Source of the DNA: Octopus sinensis
Taxonomy: Eukaryota
Reading direction: 5' to 3'
Length of the DNA: 11,057 nt
Assembly: GCF_006345805.1 (NCBI RefSeq)
Contig: NW_021827131.1
Span: 1-11,057, forward strand
Below, in pieces: positions 840 to 10,724 of this stretch. Each line of letters starts with the position of its first letter. The stretch's first letter is position 1. The position numbers were made by a program, and so were the translations under genes. The notes beneath the pieces were generated by a model. The model saw nothing but the letters and a program-made list of their open reading frames with translations. It did no database searches and was not told where the DNA came from.

Positions 840-1050
840 GTAACAACTTATAAATAAGGGCAAATGAAAAAATTTCTAATGCCAAATATGCCGAAAATTG
901 GACATAATGTCCATTACCATATAATTTTTTCCAATACGCACGCTACTCGAAAAAGGTCGACAGAAATCTCTAAAAAAGTTCCATTATTACCATATCGGAC
1001 CGATTTCAGGGTTAGTTCAAAAAGAACCCTCTCTTCGTCAGTGATACATG
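840..1050 (-). mobile_element. Putative Penelope-like element terminal repeat fragment carrying a hammerhead-like motif
   Basis: Hammerhead-like motif followed on the minus strand by ~155 nt of AT-rich sequence ending at a (TA)n tract; same layout as 8100-8336 and 9875-10232. Family assignment is inference. Confidence 0.5.
992..1047 (-). ncRNA. Type I hammerhead ribozyme-like motif HHR-1
   Basis: Minus strand: GUAUCA-CUGACGA-AGAG-AGGGUU(CUUUUUGAACU)AACCCU-GAAA-UCGG-UC|CGAUAU. CUGANGA and GAAA boxes intact, 6-bp stem II, GUC triplet, stem I GUAUC/GAUAU with a mismatch at the core-proximal pair. Confidence 0.6.
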
Positions 1051-1098
1051 TGGCAAAGAAGTAAATGAGATACTTACTCATACCCATGGAAGAAGCAA

Positions 1099-1152
1099 AT
1101 TGATTGATTGATTGATTGAATTGATTGAAAATAGATAGATAGATAGATAGAT

Positions 1153-1223
<71 letters not shown>

Positions 1224-1276
1224 GATAGATAGATAGATGATAGATAGATAGATAGATATTAGATAGATAGATAGAT
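1099..1276. repeat. (GATT)n then (GATA)n microsatellite
   Basis: Directly visible. Confidence 0.97.
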
Positions 1277-1294
1277 GTTTCTTTATTAGGAGGA

Positions 1295-1347
1295 GAAGAA
1301 GAAAAGAGACGAAGAAGAAAGAAGAAAAGAAGAAGAAGAAGAAGAAG
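1295..1347. repeat. (GAA)n microsatellite
   Basis: Directly visible, imperfect. Confidence 0.95.
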
Positions 1348-2183
1348 CGAGAGGCAAATTTAAAACGAGGTTTTATTTAAGAAACCTTACATATATAAAT
1401 TGATGTGGGAATCAGATTTCAAAGATTCCTATCTATAAGGATTATCCATGTCTCAGTATTTTTGCATATGTGTGTATGTATGCGCGGGGTGGGTGTTTGT
1501 GTGTGTATCTATAGACCGGATATGACTATCTGATCGTATATGTGTATGTCATTGTGTATGTATTTTCATCTGTAAGTGTATATGTGTTTATGTACGTAAA
1601 ACTCTATTTCGATGTTTGTACATTTATATACCATTTCTTATTACTTCTGTCACGTCTCCTGATTATTGAATGATTAAAAACATAAGATCCCAGAATACTT
1701 AAGTCATTGTTATCAAAACCGTATTTATCAAGTCTCATTGAAATTTAATCACTTTTGCAACAGACGTCATTATCTCGGATTGACTGTTTGTAATTAACGT
1801 TGAGTCATTATTAAATAGTACACGAGTTAAACTGTATAGACGGGTTGACCTGACAACGCAGTTTCGAATTCTCGTGTTGAAATTCTTTCACTTTATAAAT
1901 GCATTTGACAATGGCTAACATTAACGTATTTCTTTAATATATATATATATTCGTGGAAAATGGCGATTTTGACGTCTATATCTAGCATATAGGCTGTCCA
2001 GTTTTTTAGTGGTCAGTCCTCTAAATTTTGTATGTAAAAAATTTTAATCTTCGAGGTTTTTTTTAAAATATGCTAGGCCACTGGTTTTAATTGATTAACA
2101 ATTTCTACCCCTTATTTAATTATAAATATTAGAGCTAATATTTATCCCCATGTGTGTGTTCTATTTGAACAATTACGAGAGTT

Positions 2184-2282
2184 CTTTATTACGAACAAAT
2201 CAGGAGCCTCTAACTGGTCGCTCTACCGGCTAGAAATAGGAGCCAGTGCTATCTCAAATCAGACAAGCTTATACAGTATATC
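2184..2282 (+). repeat. Left arm of 99-bp inverted repeat (partner 3062-3160)
   Basis: Ungapped match to the reverse complement of 3062-3160, ~14 mismatches by hand count. Confidence 0.92.
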
Positions 2283-2529
2283 TCGAAGTGCCGTCCTCAT
2301 AAAAGCGTTGTTCGGGGTGCACCAACCCTGTCACCACTAACTACACTGCTATATGAGTAGTGCTATATGAGTTTTACCTTTACATATGAGGATAGTTTGT
2401 TTCAAATACGATGTTTTCTACGGTCGTGTAAAGACAATGAACTTTTCTTTAACTGAAATCATAAGAAAAGGGTTCGTACATGGAAGTATTTATTAGTCTC
2501 AATCCTTACGTATGAGATATTTACTGCTT

Positions 2530-2865
2530 TGCTTAAGTCATTCCATTTCTGTGGAACATATGCCATCGACATCTTTTCTCCACTGTTTTCAACCCTGGAC
2601 TGCTCCACTTGCCATCGTTCCCTCAAGGAAGGTTTTTGTCTCCGAGAACTTCGTTTTGAATTTTCCTCGAAGCTTCTGTAACTTTCCTTTTTTTTTTCAA
2701 AGTAGGGGTTTTGTGTCTACACAACCCAGATTTTACCTTTAGGAAGCAGTGATCCAAATTTGTCTGCCTCCTATCCTTTGACTTGTCAAACATGTGAGGC
2801 CTTATCAGGATCTTACGCTCCGCTGGTATAGCTCTCAATGAAATACACAAGTTACTACACTTCAA
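2530..2865 (-). mobile_element. Decayed 3' end of RTE-like non-LTR retrotransposon
   Basis: Minus-strand translation with a frameshift and stops: RRQTNLDHCFLKVKSGLCRH... then AVQG*KQWRKDVDGICST, resembling the RTE ORF C-terminus (WIGHTLRK...AQDRxxWRxxVxGLCS). Confidence 0.5.
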
Positions 2866-3061
2866 TGAGGATTGGATCTTGTCATGGACACATTAGGATC
2901 GTTTGGTTCAAATTCGATGTTTGTACGTAAGTATTTTACTGAATTATAAAATTATAAGAAAGACAAACTTGTGAAGCTGTCCTGAACGTAACATATGTGG
3001 ACAATATGGATGGAATACGTTAATATTTAACCTCACTTAAACTATTCTGTAATAAATTCTG

Positions 3062-3160
3062 GATATGCTGCATAAGCCTGTCTGATTCAAGGTAGCACTG
3101 GCTTTTATTTCTGGCCGGTAGAGCGACCAATTAGGGGCTTCTGCTTTGTTCGTAATAAGG
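3062..3160 (-). repeat. Right arm of 99-bp inverted repeat (partner 2184-2282)
   Basis: Reverse complement aligns ungapped to 2184-2282. Confidence 0.92.
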
Positions 3161-3210
3161 AAGGTTATCTATGAATGTGAATATCGATACATATCATTGG
3201 AAAATTATCA

Positions 3211-3316
3211 GGCGCAGGAGTGGCTGTGTGGTTAGTAGCTTGCTTACCAACCACATGGTTCCAGGTTTAGTCCCACTGCGTGGCACTTTGCGCAAGTGTT
3301 TTCTACTATAGCCTCG
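3211..3316 (+). mobile_element. tRNA-derived SINE 5' part (family A)
   Basis: GGCGCAGGAG-TGGCTGTGTGG (A-box-like)...GGTTTAGTCCC (decayed B box); related heads at 3317-3387 and 7512-7580. Confidence 0.85.
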
Positions 3317-3387
3317 GTGCCACGCAGTGGGACAGAACCCGGAACCATATGGTTGGGAAGCAAGCTACTTACCACACAGCCACTCCT
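3317..3387 (-). mobile_element. tRNA-derived SINE head (family A), inverted against 3216-3286
   Basis: 71-bp reverse complement of 3216-3286, 6 mismatches. Confidence 0.88.
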
Positions 3388-3661
3388 TTGAATTTTCGCT
3401 AAAATTTCAAAGACTTTTGAAATTTTCTAAATCACTGAATTGATTTTATCGAACGAACCATGTATAAGGTTGCCTGTTTAATTTTCTTCTCATGTTTACC
3501 TTTTTTTTTCTTCGCAAGAAATGTCATTATCTAATTAACAAGAATATCAGAAAACTCTCAAATAGCTTCAACGAAATTAGCTGGACAGCTGCATATACAA
3601 ATTCAGCTTTTAATGTTTGCTTTATGATAAAAAAGATAAAAAAGAGCGATCAATAAATTTT

Positions 3662-4020
3662 ATGTCTTCAGAGTGAAGAAAATTCTTGAATGATTTTCAA
3701 TGATCTTCTTCACTTTTATTTCACGTGCGGCTCCTACACTTTGCAGAAACAACGAAGAAACATCACAGATTTAGTGAAGAAGTTATATTCTCTCTACTTA
3801 ATGCTGAAAAGTGCAAACCATGGTAAGCACTGGCACCACATATGGTTTTTGAATCGTGTTTAGCAAATCCTCGAAGATAGGAAAGGGAAAAAAAGAAGGA
3901 ACTAGCATTTGGAATACTAATGATTTGGAGAGAGTCTAAGGATCCTTAGACTATCTCCAAATCATTAGTATTCAAAAAAACTGCAATTTTTCAATGGGGA
4001 TAATAAAGCGAAAATTCAAT
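3662..4020 (+). pseudogene. Decayed Chapaev3-like (CMC superfamily) transposase N-terminus
   Basis: Across frameshifts: MSS...CGSYTLQKQRRNITDLVKKLYSLY...GKHW/APHMVFESCLANPRR*EREKKKELAFGILMIWRESKD...NCNFSM, matching the recalled Chapaev3 pattern FCYxCG...YFG..GDQDKxWAPHxxCxxC...FxIPxIWREPxDH..CYFC. Too disrupted for the ORF track. Confidence 0.75.
3912..3973. repeat. 62-bp spacerless palindrome centred on GGATCC
   Basis: 31-bp arms, one mismatch (3932/3953). Confidence 0.97.
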
Positions 4021-4023
4021 ATA

Positions 4024-4186
4024 TTGGGTTGTCCGGAAAGTTCGTGCCGATTTTTAAAGGAAAGAAAAAGGTCAATAAATACTTGCCATTACATTTTTAA
4101 TCAGCCAAATATGAACCATTTTGTTGCACAATGCGTCTCCATCTTTCTTTTAACTTGAAAATACCCTCTTCCCAGAACTGAGGTGG
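4024..4186 (-). mobile_element. Mariner (Tc1/mariner) right end: TIR plus transposase C-terminus
   Basis: TA (4022-4023) then TTGGGTTGTCCGGAAAGTTCGTGCCGATT TIR-like sequence; minus strand 4186-4097 encodes PPQFWEEGIFKLKERWRRIVQQNGSYLAD*, the typical mariner C-terminal FxxxGIxxLxxRWxxxxxxNGxY motif. Confidence 0.88.
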
Positions 4187-4201
4187 AATTCCCAGAATTG
4201 A

Positions 4202-5038
4202 GGCGGAATTTGAACTCAGAACGTAACGGCAGACGAAATACCTATTTCTTTACTACCCACAAGGAGTTAAACACAGAGAGGACAAACAAGGAAAGACAAA
4301 CGGATTAAGTCGATTATATCGACCCCAGTGCGTAACTGGTACTTATTTAATCGACTCCGAAAGGATGAAAGGCAAAGTCGACCTCGGCGAAATTTGAACT
4401 CAAAACGTAACGGCAGACGAAATACGGCTACGCATTTCGCCCGGCGTGCTAACGTTTCTTATTTCTTTATTGCCCACAAAAAGCTACACACAGAGGGGAC
4501 AAACAAGGACAGACAAAGGGATTAAGTCGATTAGATTGACACCAGTCCGTAACTGGTACTTAACTTATCGACCCCGAAAGGATGAAAGGCAAAGTCGACC
4601 TCGGCGGAATTTGAACTCAGAACTTAACGGCAGATGAAATACCTATTTCTTTACTACCCACAAGGGGTTACACATAGAGGGGATAAACAAGGACAGACAA
4701 ACGGATTAAGTCGATTATATCGATCCCAGTGCGTAACCCTGAAAGGATGAAAGGCAAAGTCGACCTCGGCAGAATTTGAACTCAGAACTTATCGGCAGAC
4801 GAAATACCTATTTCTTTACTACCCACAAGGGGATAAACATAGAGGGGGTAAACAAGGACAGACAAACGGATTAAGTCGACTATATCGACCCCAGTGCGTA
4901 ACTGGTACTTAATTTATCGACCCCGAAAGATGAATGGCAAAGTCAACTTCGGCGGAATTTGAACTTAGAACGTAGCGGCCGACGAAATACTGCTACGCAT
5001 TTCGCCCGGCGTGCTAAAGTTTCTGCCAGCTCGCCGCC
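4202..5038 (-). mobile_element. Head-to-tail concatemer of five SINE family B units
   Basis: Units ~4808-5038 (full head GGCGGCGAGCTGGC), 4643-4807, 4460-4642, 4242-4459, 4202-4241 (truncated); B-box-like GAGTTCAAATTCC and core GCCTTTCATCCTTTCGGGGTCGATAAA recur. Confidence 0.9.
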
Positions 5039-5293
5039 TTTGTAATTTGGTTTCCGTGTTAGCAAACCAGTTGACACACTTAAAGTTGATCAAGACAACA
5101 GCTGTTTTATGTAAAGTACTTTACGTAGCAGCTCTTAGTGTCAAATTACATTTCTATCTTTCAGATTATATTTGAAGCCAGTTCACGATGACCTTCGTCA
5201 TTATTTTAGCGCATTCTGTCATCCTTCTTCTCACTCTCAGACAGCTTGCGCGTGATTTGTCACAATATGTTAGCAGACAATCGAACAACCGCT

Positions 5294-5479
5294 GGGAGGC
5301 GCAATGGCCCAGCGGTTAGGGTAGCGGACTCTCGGTCGTAAGAACATAGTTTCGATTCCCAGACCGGGCATTGTGAGTGTTTATTGAGTAAATATACCTA
5401 AGCTCCGCGAGGCTCCGGTGGGTGTGGGGTGAACTCCGCTGTACTCTTTCACCACAACTTTCTCTCACTCTTTCTTCCT
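5294..5479 (+). mobile_element. tRNA-derived SINE (family C)
   Basis: A box TGGCCCAGCGG (5305-5315), B box GTTTCGATTCC (5349-5359), non-tRNA body and CT-rich segment; 3' boundary uncertain. Confidence 0.75.
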
Positions 5480-5762
5480 ACTTCTGCCACAAAGCAGAGG
5501 AACCATGGTGTAACCCACTATGGTGTGGTAAACTTTCAGACCCTAGTCTCGATTGCGAATCCTCTGTACGCCAGGATGGTTCAGCTCTCCACCCGTTAAA
5601 AACCACCGTTTACGGAATGAGGATAACAACGTAGCTTTCGCGCCCGTGCAACCGCCAGTCTATCGCGTGCAGTGGGTGGATCTTCAAGTTGCCACATGCA
5701 TTCTTAGTAGCTTAGAGTAGGCTCGAATTAGAGATTATTAATTGTGGCTAATGGCGTGATTG

Positions 5763-5803
5763 GAAGAAGAAGAAGAAGAAGAAGAAGAAGAAGAAGAAGA
5801 AGA
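5763..5803. repeat. Pure (GAA)n microsatellite
   Basis: Directly visible. Confidence 0.97.
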
Positions 5804-6565
5804 CAATAGCTGGGCCACGTAGTCTAACAGAGACAATCGTTTTCACTGGATGATATCAGCTTTAAAATCACATTCCGGCAATCAGAAAAGATGTATGTTA
5901 CGATCAGAAGCAAGCAGCCATACCCAAAGCGTGCATAGAGCTTATATCCACAATGTTGACCCGACAGTTCTGCAGCGTAATATAACAGTTACCACCATTT
6001 TTCACTGTAGATTGTACCAGCTGTGAAACCACTCTGAGTCGGTGGGGAAACCGGTTAAAGGTGTGACGGTCACATCGTTTTTAGCGCAGATTCGAAGCCT
6101 CCCATTTGAGATAAGATTTCGATTTCCAATGTAACCTAACCGACGTTCCCGTGTTTAATCATTTCTCTCCACTCTTGTATTAGAATTGCTCAGGAGAATC
6201 AATTAATCGGCTATTGACACTGTCTCCGGTTGTGAAGTCATCGAATTGCAAAATTCCTCCTATCTATTCTGGTTGTTTATTGCTGCATAAATAATAAAAG
6301 CAATTCTATTCCGACTGTCATTCAGTGATAAACTTACTTTCATTAATCTATTGGATTTAGCAACGGGACGCGACTCAGGTATGCTGGCGAGAAGACTCAC
6401 GAAGGCTGAGGCAACGGCAGCTTCCTTCCGTAAGTCTTATTTCTTTGATTAGGTGCCTTGCTCTCATAATTCATCATTTTAACAAATTTTCACGTAACAG
6501 AGATGTCTATACCAGCATGCATCTTACCTTTATTCGTTATCTCATTCCTGGAGACGATGACCAGA

Positions 6566-6767
6566 CAGAATCATTAGGACGCCGGGCAAAACGCTTACCG
6601 GCATTCCATCCACTTTTCTGTTCTGAATTCAAAGTCCTCAAGGCCGTCTTTGCCTTTCATCCTTTCACGAAATAGGTACCAATTCAGCAATGAGGTAGAT
6701 GCTATCAACTGACCCTTCCCCCACCCCCGTATAATTTCAGGCCAGATGCCCGTAGTATAAAGTATTA
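6566..6767 (+). mobile_element. Old diverged family B-related SINE copy
   Basis: CAGAATCATTAGGACGCCGGGCAAAA...GTTCTGAATTCAAA...CTTTGCCTTTCATCCTTTC matches the reverse complement of the 4202-5038 units. Confidence 0.8.
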
Positions 6768-6781
6768 AGTAAGTCCTTCAT

Positions 6782-6930
6782 AGGATAGTGGGTTTACAGA
6801 ATCGTTAGTGCGTCGTACAAAATGTTTAGTAGCATTTATTTCTCCTCTTTGACATTTTGAGTTCAATTCAAGCTGAAGTCAATTTTACTTTTCATCCTTT
6901 CTGGGTCGATAAATATTGTGGAAGCCAAGT
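6782..6930 (+). mobile_element. Second, more diverged family B-related SINE copy in tandem
   Basis: CAGAATCGTTAG...TGAGTTCAATT...TTTCATCCTTTCTGGGTCGATAAAT. Confidence 0.75.
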
Positions 6931-7026
6931 ACGTGGCTCCATATAATTGTTTCTTCGTAGCATAAGTCCGTTACACTGCCCGCTACTTCTGAGAGCAATC
7001 CGGAACAGTGTAGCAATAAAACTGAT

Positions 7027-7044
7027 ACACACACATGCACACAC

Positions 7045-7125
<81 letters not shown>

Positions 7126-7218
7126 TACATATATAAATACATATATAAATACATATATATATATATATATTATAGTTTAAACACACACAACCATATATAT
7201 ACATACATATATATATAT
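7027..7218. repeat. (CA)n-(GATA)n-(TA)n compound microsatellite
   Basis: Directly visible; pure GATA ~7046-7124. Confidence 0.96.
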
Positions 7219-7466
7219 GAAAGGTAAGAGAGTCCAGTTTGATGGACATTGTTGTAGAGCTGAAAAAGAGGTAATTTCTACTCTTCTCCTCTGGAAGCCA
7301 TCTACTCGCAATACCAGCGGGCGCACACTCTCCTATCCTGATGTAATCTCCAGGGATACAGGCATCCAGCAACAGGACCTCCGTAATGCCATGATGGACC
7401 GTGAACTCTGGCGTAGCATGGTAAATTCCATTGTCTCGACCACGGTCGAACAATGATGATGATGAT
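7219..7466 (+). mobile_element. 5'-truncated RTE-like LINE 3' end with (TGA)n tail
   Basis: Open frame KGKRVQFDGHCCRAEKEVISTLLLWKP...GRTLSYPDVISRDTG...LRNAMMDRELWRSMV fits the RTE ORF C-terminus (FAGHCxR..LLWxP..GRP..DR..WR); stop codon is part of a TGATGATGA tail; TA repeats on both sides. Confidence 0.85.
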
Positions 7467-7511
7467 ATATATATACACACATATACGACGGTCTGACAGT
7501 GGTTTTGGCTT

Positions 7512-7580
7512 GTCCGCAGTAGGAGTAGGCCCAATGCCATGTGGCTGGAAAGCAAATTCCTTATCACACAGCCACTCCTA
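7512..7580 (-). mobile_element. Diverged family A SINE head
   Basis: Minus strand AGGAGTGGCTGTGTGATAAGGAATTTGCTTTCCAGCCACATGG resembles 3216-3260. Confidence 0.75.
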
Positions 7581-7585
7581 GATGC

Positions 7586-7586
<1 letters not shown>

Positions 7587-7677
<91 letters not shown>

Positions 7678-7700
7678 TGATTGATAGACAGATATATATA
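7587..7700. repeat. (GATA)n microsatellite
   Basis: Directly visible. Confidence 0.97.
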
Positions 7701-7716
7701 TTCATATATAAATGAT

Positions 7717-7902
7717 GGTGGGTGGGGGGACAAAGACACACAAACATATGTGCACAAACACACACACACGCATATATATAAGAAGCCCGTATATAATAAT
7801 ATATATATATTCTTATATACGGGCTTCTTATATATATGCGTCTGTGTGTGTATGTGTGCGTATGTGCACATATGTGTGTGTCTCTTTGTCCTCGCACCCA
7901 CC
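7717..7902. repeat. ~186-bp fold-back palindrome
   Basis: Core 7768-7841 is a spacerless palindrome with one mismatch; outer arms GGTGGGTG..GGACAAAGA(CA)n..CATATGTGCACA match with microsatellite length differences. Confidence 0.92.
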
Positions 7903-8066
7903 TTCACTTGATAACCGATGCTAGTGTGTTTATGTTCCCATAATCTAGCGATTCGGTAAAAGAGACTGATAGAATAAGTACTAGGCTCAAAAAAATAACT
8001 CCTGGTATATAAATGGCGGTGCCCCAGCATGGCCACAGCTCGTGAGCTGAAACTAGACAGAATAAA

Positions 8067-8067
<1 letters not shown>
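7875..8067 (+). mobile_element. 3' half of a SINE (probably family A)
   Basis: CTTGATAACCGATGCTAGTGTGTTTA...GATAGAATAAGTACTAGGC...GGCGGTGCCCCAGCATGGCCACAG...AATAAAA; recognised from memory of Octopus repeats, not confirmed within the window. Confidence 0.65.

Positions 8068-8097
<30 letters not shown>
8068..8097. repeat. (TATG)n microsatellite
   Basis: Directly visible. Confidence 0.95.
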
Positions 8098-8098
<1 letters not shown>

Positions 8099-8099
8099 G

Positions 8100-8336
8100 A
8101 ACTTTTCTGAACATTTTTTGTATTTTCTGTTTTTTTCTATTATGGTTTTTTTTTCTCTGTTTATGTCTATATTCCTTTCTGTTGAAGAGCGTGGGCTCGA
8201 AACGTAAAAGACTTTCTCACTTCCCGAGCGTTAAACTAATACATCTCTATGTTGTTTACACACCCGTCTTCGTCTCTTGTGTTTTGTTTGTTTGTTTGTT
8301 TTTTTTTCTTTTTTGTAAATTCCAACTATATATATA
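8100..8336 (+). mobile_element. Putative Penelope-like element terminal repeat with hammerhead-like motif
   Basis: T-rich leader, HHR-2, conserved TTCCCGAGCGTTAAACTAATAC motif (8221-8242), T-rich tail ending AAC-(TA)n; collinear with the 9875-10232 element. Confidence 0.6.
8175..8210 (+). ncRNA. Minimal type I hammerhead-like motif HHR-2
   Basis: CUUU-CUGUUGA-A-GAGC(GUGG)GCUC-GAAA-CG-UA|AAAG: stem I CUUU/AAAG, stem II GAGC/GCUC, palindromic ACGU in place of stem III, GUA triplet; A6U core variant. Confidence 0.65.
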
Positions 8337-8540
8337 TTACATACTTGCGCCCAGATCATTTCAATTTCCCTCTAAAACAAATTTGTGGAATCGGGGAAAA
8401 ATTATGAAATCTGGTTTTCATTATATTTCTTGGATTGCAACTGAATTCAACTTAGGAAAAGAAGATGGATTTTTTTTCATCTCTCTGATTCTATTTATTT
8501 ACAGATTTCTTGTATCACTAAATAAATACGTGTAAACGTT

Positions 8541-8542
<2 letters not shown>

Positions 8543-8587
<45 letters not shown>
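8543..8587. repeat. (TG)n microsatellite
   Basis: Directly visible. Confidence 0.97.
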
Positions 8588-8589
<2 letters not shown>

Positions 8590-8759
8590 CTGTGTGTTTT
8601 GTTGTGTGTTGCATACTTTCTTTGTGTGTTTGCTTACTCGTACACCATACACATACTGAAATATATTTGATTTCTTATTTATTCAAAAGTATTATAGATA
8701 TATGTATATATGTGTGTGCATGCAGCTAACCATAAACGCATACTTTGTTTCTATCTCAT

Positions 8760-8868
8760 TCTCTCACTCTCACGCGCTCTCTCTCTCCCTCTATCTCTCA
8801 CACACACACACACACAGACTTTTATATCTATGTATCATAGACGATACGTCCATGTGAACAGGCTTTCT

Positions 8869-8920
<52 letters not shown>

Positions 8921-9075
8921 CTCTCTCTCTGTTATTGTCTGTGTGTTTGTCTGTGTATGTGTGTGTGTGCGTGTGTGTGTATAAAACGAGTGTATCTGAG
9001 TGTGCGCGCCCGTGTGTGTTCATGTATGCGTGTGTGTTTATGTGTGAATGTGTGTGTGTACGTGTGAGTGTGTAT
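8760..9075. repeat. Low-complexity block: (CT)n, (CA)n, (TA)n, degenerate (TG)n
   Basis: Directly visible. Confidence 0.9.
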
Positions 9076-9643
9076 TTGGTAATGGCAGATAGTATGTTAT
9101 CATTTAATGTCCTTAGATTCGGATAACAAGATGGACGGCATATGTGCCTGTGTGCATGTATAAGCGTCCAGATCTGCATGTTGAATACGTGCGGGTGCTC
9201 GTGGGTGTGTTTGTGAATAGAAAGTTTATATGGTCGTCTTGTATTCGGAAACTACATAACTACAACACAAATATTCATAAAACTTTATATATTACTTTTC
9301 GAGACATTACAGAGGAATTTTGTATAATATTTACTCAAATACATAACAACCATATCACACACAAACAACAACCTATTTTCTGCCAAGAAAGGAAATAGAG
9401 AAATGCAATTTTGATTTCTATTAGCAAAAGTTGGAGGAGGGAATGGTAATATTAGTGAAAATACGTTTGTATTACGTCAAACTCTATGTTCTCTATTGAT
9501 GTTACATTCCCATTGTTGCTTTCTCTCTTTTTTTTTCTTCTTCACTTAGTTGTCGGCTGTTTATCTACTCCACATTTCGAACAATTCACGACAATGTGCC
9601 TCTGAGAAAATAGTTGCTCCCGCAAACCAAAATAAAATTTGGG

Positions 9644-9874
9644 ATTTTGCGGAGGGTCAAAGTTGGTAACAAAAACAGGACAGTGAAACAAATAGTGAGG
9701 GCTGCTAAGTCAGACGGGATAAACCGACAACTGATGAAGAGTCGTTCTTTTTGTTACTGTCTTCTTTTCCAGTTGTTTCTCTCGTTGCCCGTAAAAAAAA
9801 TGTTTGTCGTATTTCATGTTGTTTTTCGTATTTCGGATTTCATGTTTTCGTATTTCATATTGATTACGCTTTAT
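9644..9874 (+). repeat. Left arm of 231-bp inverted repeat (partner 10275-10505)
   Basis: Ungapped, ~7 substitutions; also visible as near-identical peptides in ORFs 9614..10072 (+) and 10149..10532 (-). Confidence 0.97.
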
Positions 9875-10232
9875 ATATATATAAAGTTAATCCAAACAAG
9901 AAAACAAAAACAAAAAACAACGATGCAAGGACGTGGAACAAATAAAGTATTATTGGACGCTCAGGAAAGAAGGGAAGAAGGAGGGTTTGACGTTTCGGGC
10001 GGAGCTCTTCGTCGGAAACATAGGAGAAGGAAAGATCCCGAGAAGGGAAGACAGGGGGAAAAAAATCGCTAGTGATACAGACGAGTTCACATACTAAAAG
10101 ACGGAAATAGTAAAAGTAGAAGAATAATGTTTTTAAAAAACAGGAGAGCTATATCAAAGACAGTATGGTAAAGAAAGTGAGGGGAGGAATGTGTGTAGGT
10201 GTGGTGCGTGCGGGGAGGTCAGCGTGTGCGCG
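9875..10232 (-). mobile_element. Putative Penelope-like element terminal repeat with hammerhead-like motif
   Basis: Minus strand: pyrimidine-rich leader, HHR-3, TTCCTGAGCGTCCAATAATAC motif (9947-9967), T-rich tail ending AACTT-(TA)n; bounded by TA-rich tracts. Confidence 0.6.
9985..10019 (-). ncRNA. Minimal type I hammerhead-like motif HHR-3
   Basis: GUUU-CCGACGA-A-GAGC(UCC)GCCC-GAAA-CG-UC|AAAC: stem I GUUU/AAAC, GUC triplet, ACGU palindrome; U4C core variant and one stem II mismatch. Confidence 0.62.
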
Positions 10233-10274
10233 ATATATATATGTATATATATGCATATATGGGTACAGGACGTC

Positions 10275-10505
10275 ATAAAGCGTAATGAATATGAAATACG
10301 AAAGCATGAAATCCGAAATACGAAAAACAACATGAAATACGACAAACATTTTTTTTACGGGCAACGAGAGAAACAACTGGAAAAGAAGACAGTAACATAA
10401 AGAATGACTCTTCGTCAGTTGTCGGCTTATCCCGTCTGGCTTAGCAGCCCTCACTATTTGTTTCACTGTCCTGTTTTTGTTACCAACTTTGACCCTCCGC
10501 AAAAT
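10275..10505 (-). repeat. Right arm of 231-bp inverted repeat (partner 9644-9874)
   Basis: Reverse complement of the left arm; outer end abuts (TA)n at ~10504-10515. Confidence 0.97.
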
Positions 10506-10724
10506 ATATATATATGATTGAACGCCACGCATCCATTTCCAAGTAAATTTATCTTTTCTGAAGACTGAGGGGTTCGAATGTCCTGTCCATGTTTATTGTA
10601 TCGTCTTCTATGAGTTATACGTTCTTGTCCATGTTGTATTTTTCTACATACCTTAACATATATTCCAGGCGCCCCGTACCCCCTTTATCATTAATGTGAA
10701 CACATATTCTTAATAATTGGTACG

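What the first reader, a model, noticed from the sequence alone, without database searches (positions are those of the whole stretch)
992..10019. Three divergent hammerhead-like cassettes sharing a non-canonical CUGANGA-A(GAG) core and a (TA)n-anchored tail
Seen: motifs at 992-1047(-), 8175-8210(+) and 9985-10019(-) all have the order stem I / CUGANGA-like box / extra purine(s) / stem II / GAAA / short palindrome / GUH / stem I', and each lies ~105-160 nt upstream of a (TA)n tract. Stem I covaries (CUUU/AAAG, GUUU/AAAC, UAUC/GAUA), which points to selection on structure. Established: Penelope-like elements and retrozymes carry minimal type I hammerheads, many cleaving as dimers. Inference: several short ribozyme-bearing retroelement families that target TA microsatellites, with an inserted-purine core variant. 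No RT or GIY-YIG ORF is present in the window.
Basis: partly seen in the sequence, partly recalled or inferred. Interest (0 to 1): 0.8.

Follow-up and report, generated by a model that had tools for sequence, protein, structure and literature searches.

The report
Penelope retrotransposon hammerheads with altered cores
The three motifs are real hammerhead-ribozyme-shaped tails of Penelope-type jumping genes, a known arrangement in animals, but two of the three families have spread to thousands of copies carrying a changed letter in the normally fixed catalytic core, which likely means that fast self-cutting is not what these elements need the fold for.

Summary
The three motifs are there, are not chance, and each ends a high-copy repeat family. 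Motif 2 (8179+) and likely motif 3 (10015-) are 3' ends (pseudo-LTRs) of Neptune/Nematis-type Penelope-like elements (PLEs): relatives lie downstream of RT + Cys-linker + GIY-YIG frames. Motif 1 (1041-) is an ORF-less 480-500-nt head-to-tail unit, retrozyme-like, with PLE-type inversions and two 3' ends. What is new in my searches: core changes are family-wide. Motif 2's family has U at position 6 in 16,186 exact matches against 274 with canonical A6; motif 3's has C4 in 7,292. The rest of motif 2's core is better conserved than its flanks. Most copies span the cleavage site uncut; 5' ends do not pile up there (motif 2) or only weakly (motif 3). Cleavage is untested. The main paper on PLE hammerhead variants was not available. 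The scan holds 358 hammerhead-Penelope notes elsewhere, none for this genome or sequence.

The parts
842..1099 (-). m1: 5'-truncated monomer of an ORF-less 480-500-nt head-to-tail unit (retrozyme-like, PLE-type insertion pattern); 3' end runs into (TA)n at 795-839
   Evidence: Extent from BLAST of 29 family loci on the window; tandem dimers 479-498 nt apart in 4 of 4 fetched same-strand pairs; 450 exact core matches, reversed control 0
992..1047 (-). m1 hammerhead fold: CUGACGA (1041-1035), long stem II with internal loop opened by an A-U pair, GAAA, self-complementary AUCGGU, GUC (predicted cut 998/997), stem I with an A.C mismatch next to the core
   Evidence: 91% of cells paired, 0 of 500 shuffles as high; one U-A/C-G compensatory pair in 10 of 26 distinct rows
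8146..8326 (+). m2: 5'-truncated 3' end (pseudo-LTR) of a Neptune/Nematis-type PLE; ends in (TA)n from 8327
   Evidence: 84% over 140 nt to L172, where the motif follows an RT-GIY-YIG frame remnant; 6 of 18 pattern-picked m2 loci have a sense PLE frame within 1.5 kb upstream
8175..8210 (+). m2 hammerhead fold with A6U: CUUU / CUGUUGA / A / GAGC-GUGG-GCUC / GAA / ACGU / A (predicted cut 8206/8207) / AAAG
   Evidence: U6 16,186, A6 274, C or G6 468 exact matches
9884..10212 (-). m3: 5'-truncated 3' end of a related PLE with a long CA-rich 3' UTR; ends in (TA)n at 9872-9883
   Evidence: 79% over 291 nt to L177, which holds an RT-GIY-YIG frame 2.7 kb upstream on the same strand; extent
9985..10019 (-). 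m3 hammerhead fold with U4C: GUUU / CCGACGA / A / GAGC-UCC-GCCC (family GCUC) / GAA / ACGU / C (predicted cut 9989/9988) / AAAC
   Evidence: C4 7,292 exact matches; 37 C4 to 20 U4 among the m3 rows in the first 100 listed

Best explanation
The three motifs are hammerhead-shaped 3' ends of Penelope-type retroelements copied into TA microsatellites: motif 2 and likely motif 3 are truncated ends of Neptune/Nematis-type PLEs, and motif 1 is an ORF-less tandem unit likely moved by PLE proteins. Mechanism: the GIY-YIG nuclease would nick (TA)n, and the RT would start inside the RNA 100-280 nt past the ribozyme, at an AT-rich patch of the element itself (shown in sequence: read-through copies carry TATAT at the m2 end point; inferred: it anneals to the nicked target). 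cDNA then usually runs through the ribozyme and stops early, leaving a ribozyme-plus-tail stub (shown: most copies span the cleavage site). The fold is still under selection in active lineages (shown for m2), but with A6U or U4C it is predicted to cleave slowly, only as a dimer and probably with protein help; slow or no cleavage is tolerated because uncut RNA is the main template (inferred from the Anolis PLE).
For: PLE frames upstream: tblastn of a Pfam-confirmed RT+GIY-YIG frame (L180) hits L174 (m2) at E 1.5e-52 and L177 (m3) at 5.6e-30; translations show DKG, GxxMG, YIDD, a CX4CX2C linker and GIY-YIG. 6 of 18 pattern-picked m2 loci have a sense frame upstream, 0 antisense upstream. Fixed 3' ends: first (TA)3+ lies 128-140 nt from the core in 30 of 30 m3 BLAST loci; m1 is bimodal, 194-212 (16 of 30) and 270-291 (14 of 30), like the two RT starts and 'tail' of the Anolis PLE (PMC11167929 parts 1-2 of 4); background 122 of 745 60-nt windows. 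Inverted 5' pieces and partial tandems in m1 match Craig et al. 2021 Fig. 2 legend (passages). Selection: in 49 m2 copies not picked by the core pattern, 0 of 17 non-CpG core/stem columns but 52 of 102 flank columns have a second letter in 10% or more (Fisher P 2.5e-5); N7 takes all four letters (52 U, 23 A, 16 C, 9 G in the first 100 rows, counted by hand) while A13 is C or G in only 52 matches. Core mutants: CUGA-turn single mutants had low activity in a full scan (PMC9901934 passages); natural A6C is slow in Mg2+, U4C is slow in vitro yet supports a viroid (PMC3088659, PMC7151607 passages). Anolis PLE: ribozyme mutants still insert; cleavage needs the protein.
Against: No cleavage was measured. 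For m3 the core-versus-flank test is not significant (0 of 14 against 18 of 145, P 0.37), and the ORF link rests on 1 of 3 extended loci across 2.7 kb of low-complexity DNA of which only the last 1.3 kb is shown shared with a second locus. For m1 no parent frame was found (0 of 60 loci with a sense frame upstream); the one m1 pair flanking a PLE frame is a passenger in a 1,676-nt local duplication. Pfam found no RVT_1 on the broken m2/m3 frame pieces and GIY-YIG only below cut-off on 1 of 6. None of the 30 BLAST-picked m2 loci, closest to the window copy, had a frame within 1.5 kb. Copies for the conservation test had to cover the core in an HMM search, which may favour intact cores. Clade was read from the linker, not from a tree.
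Confidence: 0.8

Rival explanations
1. The A6U and U4C cores are fully working ribozyme variants in their own context (dimer, protein or Mn2+), and cleavage plus re-ligation to circles is part of the cycle; copies span the site because the template is a re-ligated circle or tandem.
For: G5, G8, G12, A13, A14, A15.1-U16.1 and H17 are all kept while N7 varies, the signature of a catalytic core. m3 5' ends: 3 of 91 at +1/+2 of the predicted cut; 8 of 13 ends between -60 and +24 lie 3' of it (binomial 0.013, window chosen after the fact; the 8 include one internal deletion and an inverted pair counted twice). A6C cores cleave well in Mn2+. Tandem units exist for m1 and m2 (three junctions 510 nt apart, L344).
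Against: m2 5' ends are spread evenly across the site: 3 of 91 placed copies at +1 to +3, others every few nt, with a cluster at the TGT microhomology near -26. Ends at +1/+2 can be explained by A/TA microhomology with the target. Position 6 is about nine times more variable than A13 (468 against 52).
Confidence: 0.35
2. In m2 and m3 the ribozyme is dead and the sequence is kept for another job: an RNA handle for the RT, a promoter element of the pseudo-LTR, or a rod hairpin in which U6 pairs with A15.1.
For: Folding of natural copies: U6/U7 copies pair U6 with A15.1 at mean probability 0.84 (19 copies), A6 copies at 0.00 (9 copies). U6 outnumbers A6 59 to 1. Naiad PLEs thrive without hammerheads.
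Against: The rod is weak in U6/C7 copies (0.24, 15 copies) and absent in m3; N7 varies freely, which the rod would not favour; H17 is rarely G. Energy models cannot score the catalytic core.
Confidence: 0.2
3. The motifs are chance matches or single decayed copies in microsatellite-rich DNA.
For: No Rfam hammerhead hit; two of three boxes miss CUGANGA.
Against: Shuffle test; 19,730 exact m2+m3 matches and 450 m1 matches with 0 in reversed controls; position 6 is U in 70, C in 1, A in 0 of 71 readable among 122 copies picked by downstream sequence.
Confidence: 0.01

Closest known systems
Minimal type I hammerheads in the pseudo-LTRs of metazoan PLEs (Cervera and de la Pena 2014, PMC4209133; Lunse, Weinberg and Breaker 2017, not held, known only from its citation in PMC6765202)
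   Same: Extra nucleotide after A9, G10.1-C11.1, palindromic stem III without loop, 4-bp stem I, thousands of lone copies, few next to RT-EN frames.
   Different: All rows of supplement Fig. S3 seen in part 2 have U4 and A6 (the only core change is U3-A8); here U6 and C4 dominate whole families.
Neptune/Nematis clade PLEs (Craig et al. 2021, PMC8557442, passages)
   Same: RT, CX2-5CxxC linker, C-terminal GIY-YIG, microsatellite-biased insertion, hammerhead near the 3' end.
   Different: Clade not resolved by a tree; m3 has an unusually long (about 2.7 kb) CA-rich 3' UTR; variant cores.
Animal non-LTR retrozymes (Cervera and de la Pena 2020, PMC7229834, passages; Li, Clavereau and Pollet 2026 preprint, parts 1-2 of 5)
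   Same: m1: ORF-less unit in the reported 51-972 bp range, one type I hammerhead per unit, tandem dimers and lone monomers, living beside PLEs.
   Different: Minimal rather than canonical hammerhead, A.C mismatch at the base of stem I; mostly truncated monomers with inversions; circular RNA not shown.
Anolis Poseidon PLE (Frangieh et al. 2024, PMC11167929, parts 1-2 of 4)
   Same: Internal RT start past the ribozyme, AT-rich targets, two 3' ends, uncut template.
   Different: Different clade; its ribozyme overlaps the ORF start; in vitro data exist there, none here.
Natural core variants A6C (phage Bcep176) and U4C (viroid) (Perreault et al. 2011, PMC3088659; PMC7151607, passages)
   Same: Changes at the same two positions; U4C is identical.
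   Different: Those are rare single cases; A6U was not found in my searches, and here the variants number 16,186 and 7,292 exact genomic matches.

Membership tests
PLE minimal hammerhead | Type I order of stems with CUGANGA and GAAA boxes | tested here: met
   Order met in all three; exact box met for m1 and for the U4 subfamily of m3
PLE minimal hammerhead | Invariant U4 and A6 | tested here: not met
   m2 family U6; majority of m3 C4. Met for m1. So m2 and m3-C4 are variants, not consensus members
PLE minimal hammerhead | One nucleotide between A9 and G10.1-C11.1 | tested here: met
   m2 and m3: A9.1 in 49 of 49 and 44 of 44. Not so in m1, where the A pairs with U
PLE minimal hammerhead | Palindromic 15.1-16.1 allowing a dimer | tested here: met
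   ACGU in m2, m3; AUCGGU with two G.U in m1
PLE minimal hammerhead | Self-cleavage at NUH, as dimer | not testable with these tools
   Bench assay needed; only contigs, no raw RNA reads
Rfam hammerhead models | Score against Rfam 15 covariance models | tested here: not met
   No hammerhead family among 52 matches up to E 10
EN+ PLE, Neptune/Nematis type (m2, m3) | RT then C-terminal GIY-YIG upstream of the motif, same strand | tested here: met
   m2: L171-L175, 5 of 5 extended loci, chosen for a prior hit; m3: L177, 1 of 3
EN+ PLE, Neptune/Nematis type (m2, m3) | CX2-5CxxC linker | tested here: met
   Seen in L174, L175, L177 translations
EN+ PLE, Neptune/Nematis type (m2, m3) | Pseudo-LTR repeated before the frame (partial tandem) | tested here: met
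   m2: L174 and 132 read-through junctions. Not tested for m3
EN+ PLE, Neptune/Nematis type (m2, m3) | Placement in an RT tree with named clades | not tested
   No named reference proteins were fetched
Non-LTR retrozyme (m1) | ORF-less short unit in head-to-tail repeats, hammerhead in each unit | tested here: met
   Dimers at 479-498 nt; longest ATG frame in one dimer 83 codons; the ATG frame across the ribozyme is 16-85 codons, not conserved
Non-LTR retrozyme (m1) | Abundant circular RNA | tested here: inconclusive
   Only contigs of runs guessed to be RNA; back-joints also stand in the large run of unknown kind

The most novel reading that the evidence does not exclude
A PLE lineage has run for many subfamilies on a hammerhead with U at position 6 (and a sister lineage with C at position 4) while every other catalytic position stays under selection: either a new working core that needs the element's protein or Mn2+, or a ribozyme fold turned into a non-cutting RT handle. 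With natural A6 and U4 sister copies in the same genome, it is a ready-made test of what PLE hammerheads are for.
Probability: 0.4. Interest if true: 0.55.

Novelty: new variant of a known kind. Interest (0 to 1): 0.33.

Why it matters
As posed, the finding is ordinary: PLE minimal hammerheads are common in animals. The residue of interest is that the role of these ribozymes is an open question (Craig et al. call it unclear; Frangieh et al. found cleavage dispensable in vitro). Families that amplified to 16,186 and 7,292 exact matches with changes predicted to slow cleavage, beside canonical sister copies, let one ask whether selection acts on cutting or on shape. Descriptor searches that demand CUGANGA miss these copies, so hammerhead counts in such genomes are likely far too low.

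Tried and rejected
Rfam scan: no hammerhead model. tblastn for PLE frames in the window: none. m1 as pseudo-LTR of the young 781-aa PLE family: rejected, it is a passenger in a local duplication and that family has its own U3-A8 motif. A conserved peptide across m1's ribozyme: rejected. One shared alternative helix explaining both U6 and C4: rejected, holds for m2 U6/U7 only. 5' ends piling up at the cut, prompted by L174 starting at +3: not borne out in 92 m2 read-through copies (1 unplaced) or 30 further m2 copies; weak excess in 91 m3 copies. C4/U4 as CpG decay: unlikely, only 1 of 57 m3 rows has T at the neighbouring CpG while 20 have T4; on a 31-row tree (most window-like BLAST copies and unreadable cores left out) the label changes 4 times and C4 spans several subfamilies, root unknown. 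Monomer/dimer energies did not give hammerhead folds and are not used. RNA: no RNA holder listed; contigs cannot show ends. Papers not held: Lunse 2017, Arkhipova 2017; either may already list these variants. One of two supplement files of PMC4209133 was not searchable and only part 2 of 3 of the other was read; bioRxiv supplements are closed. 'Not in print' rests: none showed A6U or U4C in PLE hammerheads (listings only for hits not opened), and a 2026 octopus repeat annotation has no 'ribozyme' in its text. Earlier scan notes: none for this genome or sequence.
Full report
Setting. The window is a whole 11-kb contig of a 2.72-Gb animal genome, rich in microsatellites and repeats. The repeat at 4200-5040 looks like an octopus SINE (recalled, from no call); I did not identify the source further.

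Observation. A relaxed descriptor finds these three and nothing else; shuffles give 0.114 per window and never two (the descriptor was written post hoc). Rfam has no hammerhead match. (TA)n follows at 152, 116 and 101 nt.

Each motif is a family. DNA searches gave 2,386, 1,153 and 1,629 candidates for m1, m2, m3, 40 scored each. Exact patterns give 450 for m1 and 19,730 for m2 plus m3, with 0 in reversed controls. The 3' ends are fixed and the 5' ends vary, as for target-primed reverse transcription. and outputs were partly cut from view; counts come.

m2 and m3 are PLE ends. The genome holds many GIY-YIG frames (147 matches of 150 scored from 5,029 candidates). Of 18 m2 loci picked by pattern in genome order, 6 have a PLE frame upstream in sense within 1.5 kb and none in antisense; 0 of 30 BLAST-picked loci do. 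Extended loci show RT motifs, a CX4CX2C linker and GIY-YIG, broken by frameshifts; Pfam confirms RT and GIY-YIG only on the intact control frame and GIY-YIG weakly on one piece. The window's m2 is 84% identical to L172's end, its m3 79% to L177's, where the frame lies 2.7 kb upstream across a CA-rich stretch; the L174 (m2) and L177 (m3) frames are 69% alike in DNA. The linker points to Neptune or Nematis, for which a microsatellite bias is in print. 132 places carry the read-through from the m2 end into the next unit, and the element itself has TATAT there (the pattern demands it), so the TA 'anchor' is likely microhomology at the RT start, not a tail.

m1 is a short ORF-less unit. Sequence upstream of the ribozyme is the continuation of sequence downstream of it; dimers are 479-498 nt apart. 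Copies show inverted 5' pieces and two 3' ends about 85 nt apart, the PLE 'tail' pattern. No parent frame in 60 loci. It fits the non-LTR retrozymes, for which a PLE origin is argued in a 2026 preprint; circles are not shown. Stem II has a U-A/C-G compensatory pair in 10 of 26 rows, probably one or two events.

What is known. The extra nucleotide after A9 and the palindrome are the 2014 consensus.

What seems new. With all else fixed, position 6 is U in 16,186 matches, C or G in 468, A in 274; the A6 copies are sister sequences with like flanks (10 of 274 seen). In copies picked by downstream sequence it is U in 70 of 71 readable (122 examined). m3 has C4 in 7,292 matches and 54 C to 15 U in 91 copies picked downstream, 22 unreadable. 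In m2 the core and stems II-III are far better kept than the flanks (P 2.5e-5), in m3 not significantly (P 0.37). N7 is free and A13 nearly fixed, as in a working hammerhead, yet published mutants at positions 4 and 6 are slow. I could not see Lunse et al. 2017.

How it likely works. Shown: fixed 3' ends in (TA)n, random 5' truncation, copies spanning the cut site, upstream RT-EN frames (m2; m3 in one locus), tandem ORF-less units (m1), family-wide core changes. Inferred from the Anolis PLE: nicking of AT-rich DNA, internal RT start, uncut RNA as main template, protein-assisted cleavage. Untested: any cleavage. 5' ends gave no peak at the cut for m2 (3 of 91 at +1 to +3) and a weak excess for m3 (3 of 91 at +1/+2). 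I put about 0.45 on slow, dispensable-per-cycle cleavage, 0.35 on a fully working variant, 0.2 on a dead ribozyme kept as a handle; the PLE identity holds under all three.

Verdict. Real, well explained by known PLE biology; new variant of a known kind; interest 0.33.

Noticed in passing
window 9548-9874(+) and 10232-10505(-): A fourth TA-ending family (2,656 candidates) with CUGAUGA-A-G(A/G)GUC but with its GCUC-GAAA about 25 nt upstream of the box, like a permuted or broken hammerhead; copies often have inverted 5' parts. In the window a 231-nt, 97% inverted duplication of it brackets the m3 insertion, likely made when m3 inserted.
   Followed up: partly
window 10558-10590(+): A further CUGAAGA motif followed by UUCGAAUG, with look-alikes in L084 and L163; lacks a full GAAA box.
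   Followed up: no
L098 2361, L211 919 and 6852, and other GIY-YIG loci: The young 781-aa PLE family ends in a U3-A8 hammerhead (UUGAUAA ... GAAACAUGU) before (TA)n, in 9 of 30 GIY-YIG loci by my scan; an overlapping 479-aa frame lies upstream of the RT frame in L211 and L218.
   Followed up: partly
L211 484-2153 and 6417-8091: 1,676-nt, 99.3% direct duplication around a full PLE, carrying an m1 copy as passenger: possible 3' transduction.
   Followed up: partly
L344 (G000:C5:121298326-121299366); G000:C8:80490300-80491211: Three m2 junctions 510 nt apart and three A6-type cores about 440 nt apart: short tandem arrays from the m2 group, possible retrozymes in the making.
   Followed up: no
window 4200-5040: Five head-to-tail copies, 165-217 nt apart, of an abundant short repeat, recalled as an octopus SINE; decayed antisense copies at 6566-6915.
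   Followed up: no
window 3216-3387; 2182-2287 with 3057-3162; 7744-7865: Fold-back inverted repeats (71 nt at 92%, 106 nt at 85%, 61 nt at 90%), apparently inverted pieces of other repeats; they cause the spurious miRNA hits.
   Followed up: no
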